A stretch of 64,000 bases of DNA from Promethearchaeia archaeon. Lineage in GTDB: Archaea > Asgardarchaeota > Lokiarchaeia > Sigyniarchaeales > SOKP01. Location of the stretch: positions 9,636-73,635 of the forward strand of contig JAWOCD010000028.1 of assembly GCA_046483985.1 (NCBI GenBank), read 5' to 3'. Position 1 is the first letter of the stretch. The number at the start of each line of letters is the position of its first letter. The notes under the pieces were generated by a model that saw only the letters and a list, made by a program, of their open reading frames with translations, was not told the origin of the DNA and did no database searches. The translations under genes and the position numbers were made by a program. Below, piece after piece: positions 24,789 through 31,471 of the stretch.

Positions 24789-25952
24789 ATGAGACTAACC
24801 AATCCACTACTTAATAATTCTGATGATTTCACCTTTCCCGCTCCACTTTTTTATCTGGCAAATATAGTCGATTATCTTAATCCTTTAGTGAGATCTCTAA
24901 GTAAATTAGAAAGTTTAATACTTCAGAGAAAAATGAAGAAGGAAAAAATTAAAGAGCCGATTTATGTTACGGGATTAGCGAGAGCGGGAACTACCATTAA
25001 TTTAGAGATCTTGAATAAACATCCCGATACCGCAACTCACAAATATCTCCATATGCCATTACCCTATTTACCCTATTTTTGGACGAAACTCGCGGAAAAA
25101 ACATCAATCTTTATAGAACCAAGACAACGACTTCACAAGGACGGTATAATTGTAAACCGGGAGAGTCCAGAAGCCTTAGAAGAGATTATATGGGATAAAT
25201 TTTTCGACGATTATAAGTCAGAATTAAAAAGTAATATCTTTGATGAAAATATCAGTAATAAAGATTTTGAAGACTTCTACAAAAATCATATATTAAAACT
25301 TTTAGTAAAAGAAAATGCTTCCAGGTATGTAGCAAAGAATAACTACAATATTACAAGGATGTCTTATCTATTGCAATTGTTTCCAGAGGCAAAGTTTTTA
25401 TTAGTGATTCGCAACCCAATTAATCATATAGCCTCCACAATTAAACAATGTCAAATATTCGAAAAAATGGGAGAAAATGATCAAAAATTAAAACGTATGA
25501 CGGAAATCATTGGACACCATGAATTTGGACCTAGTAAAATTTATATCAATGTGAATAATACTCAGACGGTTAAAAGGATAAAGAAACTGTGGGATAAGGA
25601 AAAAAACATAAAAGGATGGGTATTATATTGGAAGAGTGTATATGATTTTGCTGCGAAACAACTTAAAAAAAATAAAAGACTCAGAAAAAATACACTTATA
25701 GTTAGATATGAAGATCTGTGTAAAGAGCCCAGGAAAATGATTAATAAAATCCTAACGCATACAAACCTTTCTAAGGGTAAGTTTCAAAAAATCAAAGAAT
25801 ACTATGTAAAAAAAATTAGGTGTCCCGATTACTATGACTTTAAATTCTCAAAAGATGAACTAAAAATGATATCCAATATTACCAAAAAGACAACCGATTT
25901 TTTTGGGTACAATGGAATTAACGATCTGCGAAAGAAGTCCCCATCCCTTTAG
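24789..25952 (+). CDS. PAPS-dependent sulfotransferase family protein
   Basis: GLARAGTT (5'-PSB), RNPINHIAS (3'-PB) and VRYEDL. The last codons come from the family A repeat. Confidence 0.85.
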   Translation: MRLTNPLLNNSDDFTFPAPLFYLANIVDYLNPLVRSLSKLESLILQRKMKKEKIKEPIYVTGLARAGTTINLEILNKHPDTATHKYLHMPLPYLPYFWTKLAEKTSIFIEPRQRLHKDGIIVNRESPEALEEIIWDKFFDDYKSELKSNIFDENISNKDFEDFYKNHILKLLVKENASRYVAKNNYNITRMSYLLQLFPEAKFLLVIRNPINHIASTIKQCQIFEKMGENDQKLKRMTEIIGHHEFGPSKIYINVNNTQTVKRIKKLWDKEKNIKGWVLYWKSVYDFAAKQLKKNKRLRKNTLIVRYEDLCKEPRKMINKILTHTNLSKGKFQKIKEYYVKKIRCPDYYDFKFSKDELKMISNITKKTTDFFGYNGINDLRKKSPSL

Positions 25953-26071
25953 GGAGGGGATGAATTTCGTATTTATAAAGACCACCTAAATACAAGGGAA
26001 AAACCTATTTTACTACTTTATGCTATAATCAAAGCGGTTTCAAGATTAAAAATAATACAATTGTGTTTTTA
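25923..26071 (+). mobile_element. IS200/IS605 remnant: left-end palindrome plus tnpB-like fragment
   Basis: Family A repeat, then 25979-26071 translates as RPPKYKGKTYFTTLCYNQSGFKIKNNTIVFL, resembling the TnpB N-terminal PxxK..Y.QSGFK segment. Confidence 0.7.
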
Positions 26072-26244
26072 TCTATGAAAATTTATGTGGGTACATCCCA
26101 AGGAAGTTTAATTTGTATATAATCGGTATACCCTCTGAAATGTTAAAGGAATATGCTTTCTTTTGGGTCTTTGGAAATGAAAATTAAAAAAAACAAAAAA
26201 TGAAGAAGGAAAGAGTTGTATGTGATAAAATGTTTATCAAGAAA

Positions 26245-27537
26245 TTAATATGAACCTAGATCCTTGATTAGGGTCGAAATAAATGCGGCAATATCTGGTA
26301 TATTAAAAAGAATAATTAATTCCACAAAAATTAATCCAGATAAGATTAAGAGTGCTCGTCTCTTTTTTTTCGACATTTTTTTCTTTTCTTCCTTAGTTCC
26401 AGTTATAAATGGTTTAAGAATCAGACCAATAGAAAATAAATGAGTTGTCATTAAAAGCAAAAGATTTAAAGAACTGACAGATAATATGTAAGACACTCCA
26501 TATGACCAGACAACATTTCCATCCTTATCGACCTCATAAACCACGCCACCTAATCCACCGCCGATAAGAGTATTTTCATTTTCCAATCGGTCAGCTTCAT
26601 AAGCAAACATTAGATCTCCACTATATTCCCACTCGATTTCTTTCGTATCTTTATCGATTTCAAAAACCCTATGAATATCAGTTATTAAAATATTTCCGTT
26701 GTCTAACTCATCAGCATCTCTTGCCCACGTTAATCCTTTATTATACTCCCATACGATTTCTTTTGATTCACGGTCCACTTCTATAATTCGGTGATTCTCA
26801 GAATCGGCTACGAGTATGTTTCCATTTTCCAAATAGTGGGGATTGTGTTGATGATTTAATTTTGTTTTATCTAAATAATCTCCAAAATACCATACAATAT
26901 CCTCTGCACTGGCCTTATCGCGATTTTTTGCAGAAGTATAATTCACTTCTACGATCAAGTCGAAATTACGTATTGATACTAACATAGCGGTCCAATTCCC
27001 ACCGTCATAATCTTTAAAATTCACATCATTTAAATGGGTCCAATCATATTCAATTGGATTATTAAAATAATGGGCTGAATCCCATGTATCATTATTAATC
27101 TGTTCCCAATCAATATCTTCTGGTTTCCATTCCCAAGTTATCTCCTTTGATTCATATTCGATTTCGCACACTCTGTCAAATCCCGTATCAGCAATCATTA
27201 AATTGTCATTTTCCATCTCCACGATATCATGGGGGTGTGCAAATCCTTCTTTTTCCCAAACAATATTACCCGCTGTATCCACTTCGATAACCCGATGATG
27301 CGGAGAATCTTCTTCCACGGGATTTTGTTGAGAAACTCGTGAAAGATGTAATAAGAGTTGTGGTACTGTATTAGAAGCAATAAAAGTATTATTATTTTCT
27401 CTCCGGTTCACACCTTCGAAGACGCCCATATTTTTGTAGTTATCCGCCGCTAAAACTGACCATAATATAAGATTAGAAAGGATGAAAATGATAAGTATGA
27501 CAATTATTTTTTTACTTCTTAATTTGAGATTAACCAT
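26245..27537 (-). CDS. Arylsulfotransferase (ASST)-like beta-propeller, membrane anchored
   Basis: Repeated IEVD..G.IVWE blades, WTHLNDV and HQHNP motifs. N-terminal signal and two C-terminal TMs. Confidence 0.75.
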   Translation of the reverse strand: MVNLKLRSKKIIVILIIFILSNLILWSVLAADNYKNMGVFEGVNRRENNNTFIASNTVPQLLLHLSRVSQQNPVEEDSPHHRVIEVDTAGNIVWEKEGFAHPHDIVEMENDNLMIADTGFDRVCEIEYESKEITWEWKPEDIDWEQINNDTWDSAHYFNNPIEYDWTHLNDVNFKDYDGGNWTAMLVSIRNFDLIVEVNYTSAKNRDKASAEDIVWYFGDYLDKTKLNHQHNPHYLENGNILVADSENHRIIEVDRESKEIVWEYNKGLTWARDADELDNGNILITDIHRVFEIDKDTKEIEWEYSGDLMFAYEADRLENENTLIGGGLGGVVYEVDKDGNVVWSYGVSYILSVSSLNLLLLMTTHLFSIGLILKPFITGTKEEKKKMSKKKRRALLILSGLIFVELIILFNIPDIAAFISTLIKDLGSY

Positions 27538-27645: not shown

Positions 27646-28782
27646 CTAGATTCTTCTTTGTTGCCAGTACCAAACACCAAACCCTATAACCGCTCCAATA
27701 CCCACTAAAATTATGATTAGGACAACCCAATTGAATTCCACCATCCATACATTTTCATCCAGATAAAGGAGGTCCTCATCATAGGTTTTTAAGATATGAA
27801 AAGCATAATATGTGTTGGTCACTGCAGAAGTTTCTTGATCATCTAAGCCGTTATAATTGAAAAATCCTCCGTCTTTAAAATTCTGCTTATTTAAGACCCA
27901 TTCCGTAGTGCTTTCATTAGGAAGTTCATTTTCATCTAAGAGTTTTATGCTTTCAATTGCAAAAAAGGTGCTACTTAATAAACAGAATTCTGACTCGTCT
28001 CCGGGTAAGAATCCGCCATAATTTACCTCGTCTGCTTGGTTGTCCACATAATATCCGTTAAGGTATTCTATGGTATTTTCTGCATCTGAAATCTCATCTA
28101 AATCACCCAATATTTGTAATGCATTTAAGGCGTAATAGGTATTTGCAACAGTGGAATCCAAACTTGTATTTCCACCAAAACCGCCATTTGAATTTATGCA
28201 CGAGAGGATAAAATCCTTGTGTTTGTCTGCATTATCAATATCCATATCCAGAACATCTAAAATCTTAATACTGTAGGATGTAGAGATAAGATTGGCGGAA
28301 GTGGACGTATTGGTGGGACCAAAACCCCCATCTTGTTGTTCCATATTTGAAATATAGAGTTCAATATCATTTCTAACACTAGAACTTATAGATGAATTGA
28401 CAAGTTCATTTGCTCTTAATAAATAATATAAGTCATAAACACTATGCATAGTTTTTACGAAATCGGTTAGCTCGTTTTTTAAATTAGTTTGGAAGACAGA
28501 AACATTCACATTTATTTTTGCATCTCCAAACAGTTGGGGTTCCTCATATAATTCAAAAAAATCAAGCATTTCTAAAGCATAGCCGGTTGCTTTATATGAA
28601 ATATCATCACTTTTCAAACTATTGGTAAATCCAGTATCCTTTTCATTATCTAAGAGATAATCCGTTAAATAAGTCTTTCTTGTTTTAGCTAATACAACAG
28701 GTAAAACAATGCTGATACTAATGATGAATATTATTCCGACAATCAGAATATATCGTAATTTATGATTTATTTTCAAGAACAT
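27646..28782 (-). CDS. Prenyltransferase/squalene-oxidase repeat (alpha-alpha barrel) protein, exported and C-terminally anchored
   Basis: Four Q/N-x-x-GGF...T-Y/F-x-A-x-x-x-L repeats, N-terminal signal and C-terminal TM. Confidence 0.8.
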   Translation of the reverse strand: MFLKINHKLRYILIVGIIFIISISIVLPVVLAKTRKTYLTDYLLDNEKDTGFTNSLKSDDISYKATGYALEMLDFFELYEEPQLFGDAKINVNVSVFQTNLKNELTDFVKTMHSVYDLYYLLRANELVNSSISSSVRNDIELYISNMEQQDGGFGPTNTSTSANLISTSYSIKILDVLDMDIDNADKHKDFILSCINSNGGFGGNTSLDSTVANTYYALNALQILGDLDEISDAENTIEYLNGYYVDNQADEVNYGGFLPGDESEFCLLSSTFFAIESIKLLDENELPNESTTEWVLNKQNFKDGGFFNYNGLDDQETSAVTNTYYAFHILKTYDEDLLYLDENVWMVEFNWVVLIIILVGIGAVIGFGVWYWQQRRI

Positions 28783-28923: not shown

Positions 28924-30465
28924 TCATAAGATTTCTGAAATGTCACGATATAATAAATCTTTGTTTTGTTGGAAATCCTCTTGGGTAATAAATAATCGTT
29001 GAAATGAAGGCAGACTCCCTAAAATTGATGCTCCATCGAATATCGACGTTTGTAAATTTTCTGGGATATAAAATTTAATAATATTTTCAGATTCTTCGTA
29101 AAATCCTGTAAATTCTTTAGCTTCAGGAGCTTTTTCAACTTTTTCTTCTACGGGTCCTAAATCTGGTTCTTCTGGTATATTTTTTCCGCAATAAGGACAA
29201 AATCTGGATGTGGAGTCAGTAATCTTTTTATTACAATGCGGACAAATTAATTCTTCAGGTGTTTCTTCTTTTTTAGCTCCTTTTTCATCTTCCATATTAA
29301 TGGCAATCGGAATTTTGGGGATTTTCATCTTCGCACCACATTGGGGACAAAATTCGTTATCATCCGATAAATCTATTAACTCTCCACACTTTGGACAAGT
29401 ATCTGTCTTCTTTTCTTTCCCCTCTACTGGCTGTAACCCTTGTTTTTCTTGCGTGGTACCAATCTCCTTACTGCCCGCTGGTTTTGGAATGGGTCCTAGT
29501 TGAGGAAGGCTTTTTTTTAATTCTTGCTTAAACCGTTCTGTGAAACCACTATACGATAAATTCCCACCCGAAAGTACTATATGGGATAATAGATCTCCCC
29601 AATAAGTCTTTTCCATCATTTGCAAGCTGTAAATGGTCGCTTGCGTGATATTCTTCATATTATATCCCAACATTCCTGGTTGAAATAAGACTTCGGGAGC
29701 CTCATAAAGAATATGATTGGGAATTTGTATAATTGATCCATCTGGCATCGAGTATTCTAACGCATCACGTGTTTCATTCGGATTATCCGGATCAAGCACC
29801 ATATAACAGTTTTTTTCCTTTATCTCTTGGATGATTTGTTCTAATGCGGAAGCATCTAAATTTATTCCTTCACGCATCAAGAGTGATTTAAAATTATGAT
29901 TCACATCTATCCCAGCTAAATAAAGTCTTTGAGTAGCTTGTTCCATAATTTGTCCATCAATAATGGGAACTGTCCATGTTACCCCGTCTCCAGATTCTAC
30001 CACTAAACCGGTAGTGAGCCCTATAGAGAACATTGATAAGAGAGGAGAAGGAACCATAACTAAACTTTTCACGCTATGAGTTTCGAATAATACGCGTGCA
30101 ATATATTCCTTCGTTTCTTTGGCGACAAAGGGATGCTCGACATAAATAACGGGATATTCGGCCACACTTTCCAGCCGCAGTAGATTATAGAAGATATGAT
30201 TTAATATTTCATAATAGTCATTCCAATCTTGAATTTGTCCCCGTTCAATTGGTCTTTCCAATTTGAGGACCCCTCGCATATTCATTGCATCATTACCGAC
30301 GTATAAATTTCTTGCATCTACATCCACCATGACCGTTTGATATTTTTCTGTACCAGTTATACATGGAAATATATATCTTGGCTCAGAATCACCGGCATAC
30401 CCTACTTTTACATAGGCACTCCCCACATCAATAATTATAGGTGTTCCTTCTTCTGGTTCAGACAT
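28924..30465 (-). CDS. Actin-family protein (Asgard actin-related) with double zinc-ribbon insertion
   Basis: IIDVGSAYVKVGYAGD, GLVVESGDGVT, EIKEKNCY, Y.MPDG..I, PEVLFQP, IVLSGGN and GASILGSL motifs, plus an insert with four CxxC pairs. Confidence 0.93.
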   Translation of the reverse strand: MSEPEEGTPIIIDVGSAYVKVGYAGDSEPRYIFPCITGTEKYQTVMVDVDARNLYVGNDAMNMRGVLKLERPIERGQIQDWNDYYEILNHIFYNLLRLESVAEYPVIYVEHPFVAKETKEYIARVLFETHSVKSLVMVPSPLLSMFSIGLTTGLVVESGDGVTWTVPIIDGQIMEQATQRLYLAGIDVNHNFKSLLMREGINLDASALEQIIQEIKEKNCYMVLDPDNPNETRDALEYSMPDGSIIQIPNHILYEAPEVLFQPGMLGYNMKNITQATIYSLQMMEKTYWGDLLSHIVLSGGNLSYSGFTERFKQELKKSLPQLGPIPKPAGSKEIGTTQEKQGLQPVEGKEKKTDTCPKCGELIDLSDDNEFCPQCGAKMKIPKIPIAINMEDEKGAKKEETPEELICPHCNKKITDSTSRFCPYCGKNIPEEPDLGPVEEKVEKAPEAKEFTGFYEESENIIKFYIPENLQTSIFDGASILGSLPSFQRLFITQEDFQQNKDLLYRDISEIL

Positions 30466-31087: not shown

Positions 31088-31471
31088 TTATTCACTATTG
31101 AGAATTGAATTTCTAATTTTTTTTTCCATTTTGTTTATTTTAGAGTCTAATTTCTCAAATATATTCAGAATTGTTTTACCCCATTCATTCAATTTAATGA
31201 ATCCACCACCTCCCGCCCCTCCTTTCCCAGTAATAACGGGAGATTGACCGGTTCTTTTTTCTATTCGCTTTAAGATATTCCATGCGTATTTGTATGAATA
31301 GCCACACTTTTGAGCGGCGTCGGTTAGGGAGGTTACATCATCATCATGAATATTCTGTAATAAATTTGCCCATCCTTTTCCTAATATATTTTCATCATTG
31401 TAGCTTAACCAATATTTTATTCCAAAGGAAATATTTTTCTTCAATTTTTCTAAATTGGGTTCATTATCCAT
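31088..31471 (-). CDS. ModE-like winged-helix regulator (no TOBE domain)
   Basis: SLTDAA..GYSYKYAW..GGAGGGG..L..G motif. Confidence 0.85.
   Translation of the reverse strand: MDNEPNLEKLKKNISFGIKYWLSYNDENILGKGWANLLQNIHDDDVTSLTDAAQKCGYSYKYAWNILKRIEKRTGQSPVITGKGGAGGGGFIKLNEWGKTILNIFEKLDSKINKMEKKIRNSILNSE

What the first reader, a model, noticed from the sequence alone, without database searches (positions are those of the whole stretch)
28924..30465. Actin homolog carrying a ~140-aa double zinc-ribbon insert
Seen: a co-linear actin fold, interrupted at about 29085-29500 (between KQELKKSLPQL and IKFYIPE) by a Pro/acidic linker with CPKC..CPQC and CPHC..CPYC. Known: this is the subdomain-3 loop near actin residues 320-330, where some eukaryotic ARPs carry inserts. 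Canonical actins have no zinc ribbons. Inference: a distinct Asgard ARP class with a built-in interaction, nucleic-acid-binding or redox module.
Basis: partly seen in the sequence, partly recalled or inferred. Interest (0 to 1): 0.8.

Follow-up and report, generated by a model that had tools for sequence, protein, structure and literature searches.

The report
Lokiarchaeal actin relative with zinc ribbons
This is a real, conserved actin-like gene of one order of Loki-type Asgard archaea that carries two small zinc-binding modules in a loop actin uses to stack into filaments; the fusion was listed in a 2020 genome table, but its function has never been tested.

Summary
Window 28924-30465 (-) encodes a 513-aa actin-fold protein (Pfam Actin E 2e-70). 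Actin residues 324-326 are replaced by a 140-aa insert (residues 323-462, nt 29080-29499). The insert is three flexible linkers and two Cys4 zinc ribbons.

All eight Cys are invariant in 49 orthologues. Full-length copies occur in 142 of 153 other genomes of the window's own order, and in none of 7 sister-family or about 240 other Asgard genomes searched.

It is not Lokiactin: the genome has its own Lokiactin, 33% identical. Actin's Q137 is replaced in all 17 copies examined, and H161 in most.

The family includes MK-D1 DSAG12_03244, listed in Imachi et al. [quoted passage not shown] It also includes Ca. L. ossiferum UYP44711.1. So this is a new member of a catalogued but unstudied kind. This scan had already flagged the same family in other genomes.

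My best guess is inferred, not shown. It is a poorly hydrolysing regulatory ARP that docks on Lokiactin by its conserved pointed face and presents tethered zinc ribbons as protein-binding adaptors at its altered barbed face. A type-I surface-protein gene lies just downstream in most genomes examined, but general synteny weakens that link.

The parts
28924..30465 (-). Whole ORF, 513 aa plus stop: zinc-ribbon actin-related protein (ZnR-ARP, P0001)
29500..30465 (-). Actin core, N-terminal part (residues 1-322). Phosphate-1 DVGS, phosphate-2 ESGDG and adenosine SGGN motifs are kept. Q137->S140, D154->E157, H161->W164.
29404..29499 (-). Insert linker 1 (residues 323-354): conserved QLGxIPKP exit motif, then a Lys-rich stretch that is mostly predicted disordered
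29329..29403 (-). Zinc ribbon 1 (residues 355-379; C357, C360, C373, C376). Fixed length of 24-25 aa, acidic.
29248..29328 (-). Insert linker 2 (residues 380-406): conserved PxIxIxL-like motif, then a variable basic stretch; pLDDT <50 over 383-404
29179..29247 (-). Zinc ribbon 2 (residues 407-429; C408, C411, C423, C426; conserved SxFCPYCG). Fixed length of 23 aa.
29080..29178 (-). Insert linker 3 (residues 430-462): acidic, variable length, conserved AxEF motif; pLDDT <50 over 432-452
28927..29079 (-). Actin core, C-terminal part (residues 463-513), aligned to actin 328-366 and beyond
27646..28782 (-). Conserved downstream neighbour: 378-aa type-I membrane protein. It has a signal-like N-terminus, an extracellular prenyltransferase-type alpha/alpha toroid, a C-terminal TM helix and a short basic tail ending in RRI. 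It is a candidate partner only.
31088..31471 (-). Conserved upstream neighbour: 127-aa ModE-N-like winged-helix protein. It scores below the NCBIfam cut-off.

Best explanation
Shown: the gene encodes an actin-fold protein with intact nucleotide-binding loops. The three-residue subdomain-3 loop (actin 324-326) is replaced by a 'beads-on-a-string' insert: basic linker, acidic Cys4 zinc ribbon, linker, second Cys4 ribbon, acidic linker. In F-actin that loop touches subdomain 4 of the next subunit. The protein is a paralogue separate from Lokiactin, is confined to one order of Lokiarchaeia, and its orthologues are transcribed in two cultured strains. Inferred: it binds ATP but hydrolyses it poorly, because Q137 is replaced in every copy examined, D154 is Glu in nearly all, and H161 is replaced in most. 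It works as a low-abundance regulatory or adaptor ARP of the Lokiactin cytoskeleton. It would dock through its conserved pointed face (D-loop, subdomains 2 and 4) onto a Lokiactin barbed end or protomer. Its altered barbed face would then present two flexibly tethered zinc ribbons as protein-binding modules that cap, anchor or recruit a partner. That partner may be a membrane complex that includes the type-I surface protein encoded just downstream.
For: Actin fold and insert site. Actin 322-325 contacts 243-245 of the adjacent subunit: PMC7247010. Ribbons under constraint: eight invariant Cys and fixed ribbon lengths against linkers of 18-44 aa; the linkers have pLDDT <50. Separate from Lokiactin: the genome's own Lokiactin L001 keeps Q137 and H161 and is 33% identical. 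Catalytic changes across the order. Consensus identity to Lokiactin is 52% on the pointed face against 37% overall, 36% on the barbed face and 29% on lateral contacts. The D-loop motif GTEKYKxVMVDV is near-invariant. Lower transcript level than Lokiactin: MK-D1 RPKM 229 against 501. In L. ossiferum, Lokiactin transcripts are severalfold higher than those of the other actin homologues, and the UYP44711.1 primers match the orthologous ORF. Ribbon 1 is acidic, which favours protein over nucleic-acid binding. The toroid gene is immediately downstream on the same strand in 14 of 16 loci inspected across four families, and in about 49 of 52 f1/f3 genomes by coordinates.
Against: There is no binding, ATPase or polymerisation data. 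The interface comparison uses small residue sets (21-44 positions) taken from eukaryotic F-actin and is not statistically significant on its own. Barbed-groove residues (SILGSLPSF) are also well conserved, so polymerisation is not excluded. An insert of flexible linkers could loop out of a filament interface; from memory, neighbouring actin residues K326 and K328 are surface-exposed. FolD, a housekeeping gene, is equally syntenic, so neighbourhood conservation may be plain inheritance. The toroid protein exposes only about 8-10 cytoplasmic residues at each end. Distant toroid homologues in sister families have no actin neighbour.
Confidence: 0.4

Rival explanations
1. It is a filament-forming or co-polymerising actin paralogue. 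The insert loops out of the longitudinal contact, so the zinc ribbons decorate the filament surface as built-in side-binding adaptors, for example for bundling or membrane attachment along protrusions.
For: Both end faces are conserved within the family (75-85% column conservation). The D-loop length is actin-like. The linkers are long and disordered, so they could exit an interface. An insert-less paralogue (L019) shows the core is viable alone.
Against: Lateral-contact positions are the least Lokiactin-like (29% identity). Q137 is replaced in every copy examined, which removes the hydrolysis clock typical of dynamic filaments. Transcript levels are lower than Lokiactin's.
Confidence: 0.25
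2. It is a non-cytoskeletal ARP, analogous to nuclear Arp4 or Arp8. The actin fold would be a nucleotide-sensing scaffold and the ribbons would bind DNA, RNA or a transcription or chromatin factor, possibly linked to the ModE-like winged-helix gene upstream.
For: A ModE-N-like HTH gene lies upstream on the same strand in families f1 and f3. Zinc ribbons are common in nucleic-acid-binding proteins. Linker 1 is Lys-rich.
Against: Ribbon 1 is acidic and the insert is net neutral. The HTH match is below its curated cut-off, and a CBS-domain gene sits between HTH and ARP in several genomes. The D-loop and pointed face stay actin-like.
Confidence: 0.1
3. The Cys4 ribbons act as a redox or zinc sensor. 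They would fold or unfold with metal or thiol state and so gate access to the barbed face of the ARP, rather than recruiting a partner.
For: There are eight invariant cysteines in an anaerobe. The ribbons sit at a subunit-contact loop.
Against: Residues other than Cys are conserved in both ribbons (DTCPxCG, SxFCPYCG) and in linker motifs, which suggests specific binding surfaces. One ribbon is dispensable in L. ossiferum and family f4. There is no direct evidence.
Confidence: 0.1
4. It is an artefact: a chimeric assembly, a mis-called fusion or a decaying gene.
For: None found. One incomplete genome (G194) has a copy with in-frame stops.
Against: The frame is uninterrupted. The same architecture occurs in 142 of 153 other genomes of the order, including single-contig genomes. 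More than 120 clusters at 90% identity carry both Pfam domains. It is transcribed in MK-D1.
Confidence: 0.01

Closest known systems
Ca. Prometheoarchaeum syntrophicum MK-D1 DSAG12_03244 (Imachi et al. [quoted passage not shown]
   Same: Same family. The actin core is interrupted at the same loop by two Cys4 ribbons. It has the same downstream toroid membrane-protein gene and upstream ModE-like gene, and Q137 is replaced. The L016 ORF is 557 aa with Cys at 373-430, matching the table.
   Different: About 36% identical. It is 557 aa against 513 aa. Its third linker is longer, with a basic-then-acidic motif (DRKEKKLLKKT...SEYGG...) absent from the window's family. H161 is Thr rather than Trp. It was only catalogued, and no function is reported.
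Ca. Lokiarchaeum ossiferum UYP44711.1, one of three unnamed 'ARPs' in Rodrigues-Oliveira et al. 2022 (PMC9834061)
   Same: It is the orthologue: the published RT-qPCR primers for UYP44711.1 match the orthologous ORF in L015. It has the same insert site and the same neighbours.
   Different: About 40% identical. It has only one zinc ribbon and keeps His at the H161 position. The paper does not mention the insert.
Lokiactin (this genome: L001, 380 aa)
   Same: Actin fold, nucleotide-binding loops, similar D-loop and pointed-face residues.
   Different: 33% identity. Lokiactin has no insert and keeps Q137, D154 and H161. It is present in all Asgard classes and is 79-95% conserved among 28 relatives, against 57-82% for the ZnR-ARP.
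Eukaryotic Arp3 (Arp2/3 complex)
   Same: From memory only: Arp3 carries a conserved insert between helix alphaK and strand beta15 at its barbed end, which would be the same structural site. Both are ARPs whose barbed face is specialised.
   Different: Arp3 has no zinc ribbons and keeps Q137 and H161 (also from memory). No orthology was tested. The 60 best PDB sequence matches of the window's protein are all conventional actins, not Arps. The Arp3-insert paper could not be read.

Membership tests
Actin family (Pfam PF00022) | Profile match above the curated cut-off, and the actin fold | tested here: met
   237.9 bits against a cut-off of 27. PDB actins at E 1e-71. Foldseek TM-score 0.82-0.86 on the actin length.
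Actin family (Pfam PF00022) | Nucleotide-binding motifs (phosphate-1 DxGS, phosphate-2 xSGDG, adenosine SGG) | tested here: met
   D13, G15, S158, G159, G161, G300 and G301 are invariant in 49 orthologues.
Conventional actin / Lokiactin | Catalytic-water residues Q137 and H161 (with D154) | tested here: not met
   S140, E157 and W164 in the window's protein. Q137 is S, T or A in all 17 copies examined across the order. The genome's own Lokiactin keeps Q, D and H.
Conventional actin / Lokiactin | Orthology: high identity to Lokiactins and an uninterrupted subdomain-3 loop | tested here: not met
   33% identity to the genome's own Lokiactin, whereas Lokiactins are 79-95% alike. The 140-aa insert interrupts the loop.
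Zinc ribbon (PF13248, PF13240, PF12773 DZR) | Two CxxC knuckles per module, with a profile score above the cut-off | tested here: met
   43.5, 42.0 and 41.1 bits against cut-offs of 27, 25 and 27.3. Eight Cys are invariant.
Zinc ribbon (PF13248, PF13240, PF12773 DZR) | Zinc actually bound | not testable with these tools
   Needs metal analysis of purified protein.
Lokiarchaeal ZnR-ARP (DSAG12_03244 / UYP44711.1 type) | Zinc-ribbon insert at actin 324-326, shared gene neighbourhood, restriction to the same order | tested here: met
Eukaryotic Arp subfamilies (Arp1-Arp10) | Phylogenetic grouping with a named eukaryotic Arp clade | not tested
   I did not collect named eukaryotic Arp reference sequences, so no tree including them was built. 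Published trees place UYP44711.1 among 'Asgard and eukaryotic ARPs' without naming a clade.

The most novel reading that the evidence does not exclude
The ZnR-ARP is a dedicated filament-end adaptor. It would sit on Lokiactin barbed ends without hydrolysing ATP and use its tethered zinc ribbons to couple filament ends to a membrane complex containing the co-located type-I surface protein. That would make it an archaeal cytoskeleton-to-envelope linker, acting in a way reminiscent of Arp-based nucleators or cappers, but it evolved independently within one Asgard order.
Probability: 0.15. Interest if true: 0.8.

Novelty: new member of a known kind. Interest (0 to 1): 0.45.

Why it matters
[quoted passage not shown] This ARP is present in both cultured Lokiarchaeia genomes identified here (MK-D1 and Ca. 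L. ossiferum), is transcribed there, and has a clear, testable structural peculiarity at a filament-contact loop. That makes it a practical target for biochemistry and imaging. The gene itself is not a discovery: it is in public annotation and in a 2020 supplementary table. What remains open is its function.

Tried and rejected
1. Complex prediction of the ZnR-ARP (A1) with the genome's Lokiactin (A2).

2. Co-absence test. The two fairly complete f1 genomes without the ARP (G147, G232) also lack the toroid orthologue. They lack the flanking metallo-beta-lactamase gene too. So the whole region is probably unassembled and the co-absence says nothing.

3. Literature searches for Asgard or Lokiactin with 'zinc ribbon', 'double zinc ribbon' or 'Zn-ribbon' found no description of the insert in any main text. 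Only the Imachi supplement lists it.

4. The Liu et al. 2013 paper on Arp3 inserts is not held, so the Arp3 parallel rests on memory.

5. The Pfam zf_UBZ hit (27.8 bits when the insert is scanned alone) covers only a CxxC knuckle (profile positions 1-16 of 32) and falls below the cut-off in the full protein. I rejected it as evidence for ubiquitin binding.

6. A search of the genome with the ribbon region found only generic zinc-ribbon matches (E >= 6e-5), so no informative paralogous module.

7. Longer hits in the 50%-identity library (P0248, P0249, P0253, P0259) proved to be tandem actins, not larger inserts.

8. The small tree did not resolve the base, so it neither shows nor rejects monophyly of all ZnR-ARPs relative to Lokiactin. 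It also kept the insert columns.

9. No tRNA genes and no Rfam matches above gathering score in the window.

Full report
**Observation**

Window 28924-30465 (-) is an uninterrupted 513-aa ORF. Pfam finds Actin over residues 6-321 (E 2.1e-70). It also finds three zinc-ribbon families (Zn_ribbon_3, Zn_Ribbon_1, DZR) over 356-380 and 408-428, each above its curated cut-off.

Against PDB sequences, residues 5-322 align to actin 4-324 and residues 463-501 to actin 328-366, at E 1e-71. In standard actin numbering the chain breaks after residue 323 and resumes at 327. So 140 residues (323-462, nt 29080-29499) replace actin 324-326.

**Anatomy of the insert**

- An AlphaFold2 model built on 49 orthologues has mean pLDDT 72.7.
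- The actin core is well predicted. Foldseek gives TM-scores of 0.82-0.86 against actins.
- Two small ribbons (about 353-382 and 405-431) reach pLDDT 55-72.
- Three linkers (331-352, 383-404, 432-452) fall below 50.
- Across the 49 orthologues the ribbons have fixed lengths (24-25 and 23 aa), while the linkers vary from 18 to 44 aa.
- Mean net charges are: linker 1 +3.8, ribbon 1 -2.4, ribbon 2 +1.4, linker 3 -5.1.
- All eight Cys are invariant. So are or nearly are flanking residues (DTCPxCG, SxFCPYCG) and short linker motifs (QLGxIPKP, PxIxIxL, AxEF).
- In F-actin, residues 322-325 of subdomain 3 contact residues 243-245 of subdomain 4 in the adjacent subunit (PMC7247010). The insert therefore sits in a longitudinal filament contact on the barbed-end side.

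**Distribution**

- The protein database holds more than 120 clusters at 90% identity, of 490-520 aa, carrying both Actin and zinc-ribbon domains.
- At 50% identity the family collapses to about seven representatives. No zinc-ribbon actin appears outside it.
- I searched 400 genomes of the phylum in six frames. Full-length matches occur in 127 of 134 genomes of the window's family f1, and in 1 of 1, 10 of 14 and 4 of 4 genomes of families f2, f3 and f4 of the same order.
- None was found in 7 genomes of sister families or in about 240 genomes of other Asgard classes. There the best hits are at Lokiactin level (about 1e-85).
- Most of the genomes without it are incomplete. For the two fairly complete ones, a flanking gene is missing as well, which suggests an assembly gap.

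**Paralogues and catalytic residues**

The genome has a separate Lokiactin (L001, 380 aa, about 60% identical to eukaryotic actins), two other ARPs and a ParM-like protein. The ZnR-ARP is 33% identical to that Lokiactin.

- Actin Q137 is Ser, Thr or Ala in all 17 copies examined across the order.
- D154 is Glu in nearly all of them.
- H161 is Trp in most of family f1 and variable elsewhere.
- The Lokiactin keeps all three residues.
- The nucleotide-binding loops are invariant.

ATP binding with weak hydrolysis is therefore the likely state. This is an inference.

**Variation within the family**

- Ca. L. ossiferum and family f4 have a single ribbon.
- Most family f3 copies (L014, L016, L021 and L. 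ossiferum's L015) add a longer basic-then-acidic linker.
- One genome (G195) has an extra 385-aa paralogue that keeps the family-specific flanks but has no insert. It nests inside the f1 clade on a long branch (100/100 support for the enclosing set). That indicates a secondary loss of the insert after a recent duplication.

**Link to the literature**

- The published RT-qPCR primers for L. ossiferum UYP44711.1 match the orthologous ORF in the 6.035-Mb single-contig genome. So this orthologue is one of the three unnamed 'ARPs' in Rodrigues-Oliveira et al. That paper reports Lokiactin transcripts severalfold higher and does not mention the insert.
- Imachi et al. [quoted passage not shown] The DZR domain is at 373-430 and expression is RPKM 229, against 501 for Lokiactin. 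The L016 ORF matches in length and Cys positions.
- No main text in the searched library describes or tests the fusion.
- This scan had already reported the same family from other genomes. I re-derived their main points independently.

**Neighbourhood**

The ARP is followed on the same strand, after 41-337 bp, by a gene of about 380 aa. That protein has a signal-like N-terminus, a prenyltransferase-type alpha/alpha toroid (PF00432, E 1e-19), a C-terminal TM helix and a short basic tail that usually ends in RRI or NRI.

- This holds in 14 of 16 loci inspected across four families.
- By coordinates it holds in about 49 of 52 f1 and f3 genomes; the exceptions lie at contig ends.
- A ModE-N-like winged-helix gene lies upstream in f1 and f3.
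- However, FolD, a housekeeping gene, is about as persistently syntenic.
- The toroid protein exposes only a few cytoplasmic residues.
- Distant toroid homologues in sister families have no actin neighbour.

The pairing is a lead, not evidence of interaction.

**Mechanism**

I compared the family consensus with the Lokiactin consensus at positions that form F-actin contacts. The contact lists come from my knowledge of eukaryotic F-actin.

| Position set | Identity to Lokiactin consensus |
|---|---|
| All mapped positions | 37% |
| Pointed-face positions | 52% |
| Barbed-face positions | 36% |
| Lateral contacts | 29% |

The pointed-face positions are also the best conserved within the family (85%), and the D-loop motif is nearly invariant. 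The sets are small and the difference is not significant alone.

Taken with the insert on the barbed face, the lost catalytic Gln and the lower transcript level, I favour an end-binding or adaptor ARP (confidence about 0.4). It would dock on Lokiactin by its pointed face and present zinc ribbons as protein-binding modules. A co-polymerising, filament-decorating paralogue is the main rival (about 0.25). A non-cytoskeletal ARP and a redox or zinc switch are less likely. An artefact is excluded. The one complex prediction allowed was not folded by the tool.

**Verdict**

This is a real, strongly conserved, order-restricted zinc-ribbon ARP. It is already catalogued but uncharacterised, so the window adds one more member. 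Interest is moderate. It is a good experimental target in the cultured Lokiarchaeia, but neither the sequence nor the architecture is new.

Noticed in passing
L019:6873-8030 (-) (G195:C37): A 385-aa paralogue of the ZnR-ARP with no insert (QLGVIPGSFDLSKRALGFFIPDNLQ) in a genome that also has the full-length gene. It nests within the f1 clade on a long branch, so it is a secondary loss of the insert. No other copy scored as high among the 150 best matches from 400 genomes.
   Followed up: partly
L015:7004-8503 (-); L017:6982-8490 (+); L018:7012-8475 (+): Ca. L. ossiferum and family f4 orthologues carry only one zinc ribbon, so the second ribbon is dispensable in some lineages.
   Followed up: partly
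L014, L015, L016, L021 (family f3 orthologues), third linker: These four family f3 copies share an extra conserved basic-then-acidic stretch (e.g. DRKEKRLLKKT...ESEYDSEELEE) after the ribbons. It is absent from the window's family and may be a further short linear motif.
   Followed up: no
window 27646-28782 (-) and its orthologues in L006-L021: The neighbouring toroid membrane protein has a very short cytoplasmic C-terminal tail that ends in (K/R)(K/N/R)RI in 11 of 14 orthologues across four families. That is more constant than the positive-inside rule alone would require.
   Followed up: partly
window 24789-27537: A sulfotransferase gene (+) and a beta-propeller (PQQ/NHL-like) membrane-protein gene (-) lie between the toroid gene and FolD. 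Most related genomes have the toroid gene and FolD directly adjacent, so this looks like a local insertion.
   Followed up: no
G194:C12:3312-4412 (-): The ZnR-ARP match in this 58%-complete genome carries five in-frame stops (3 TAG, 2 TAA). It is either a decaying copy or a poor assembly.
   Followed up: no
window 30247-30360 (-), residues 36-73: AlphaFold2 gives pLDDT <50 for the whole subdomain-2 / D-loop stretch, although it is among the most conserved parts of the family. This could mean a segment that orders only on binding a partner.
   Followed up: no
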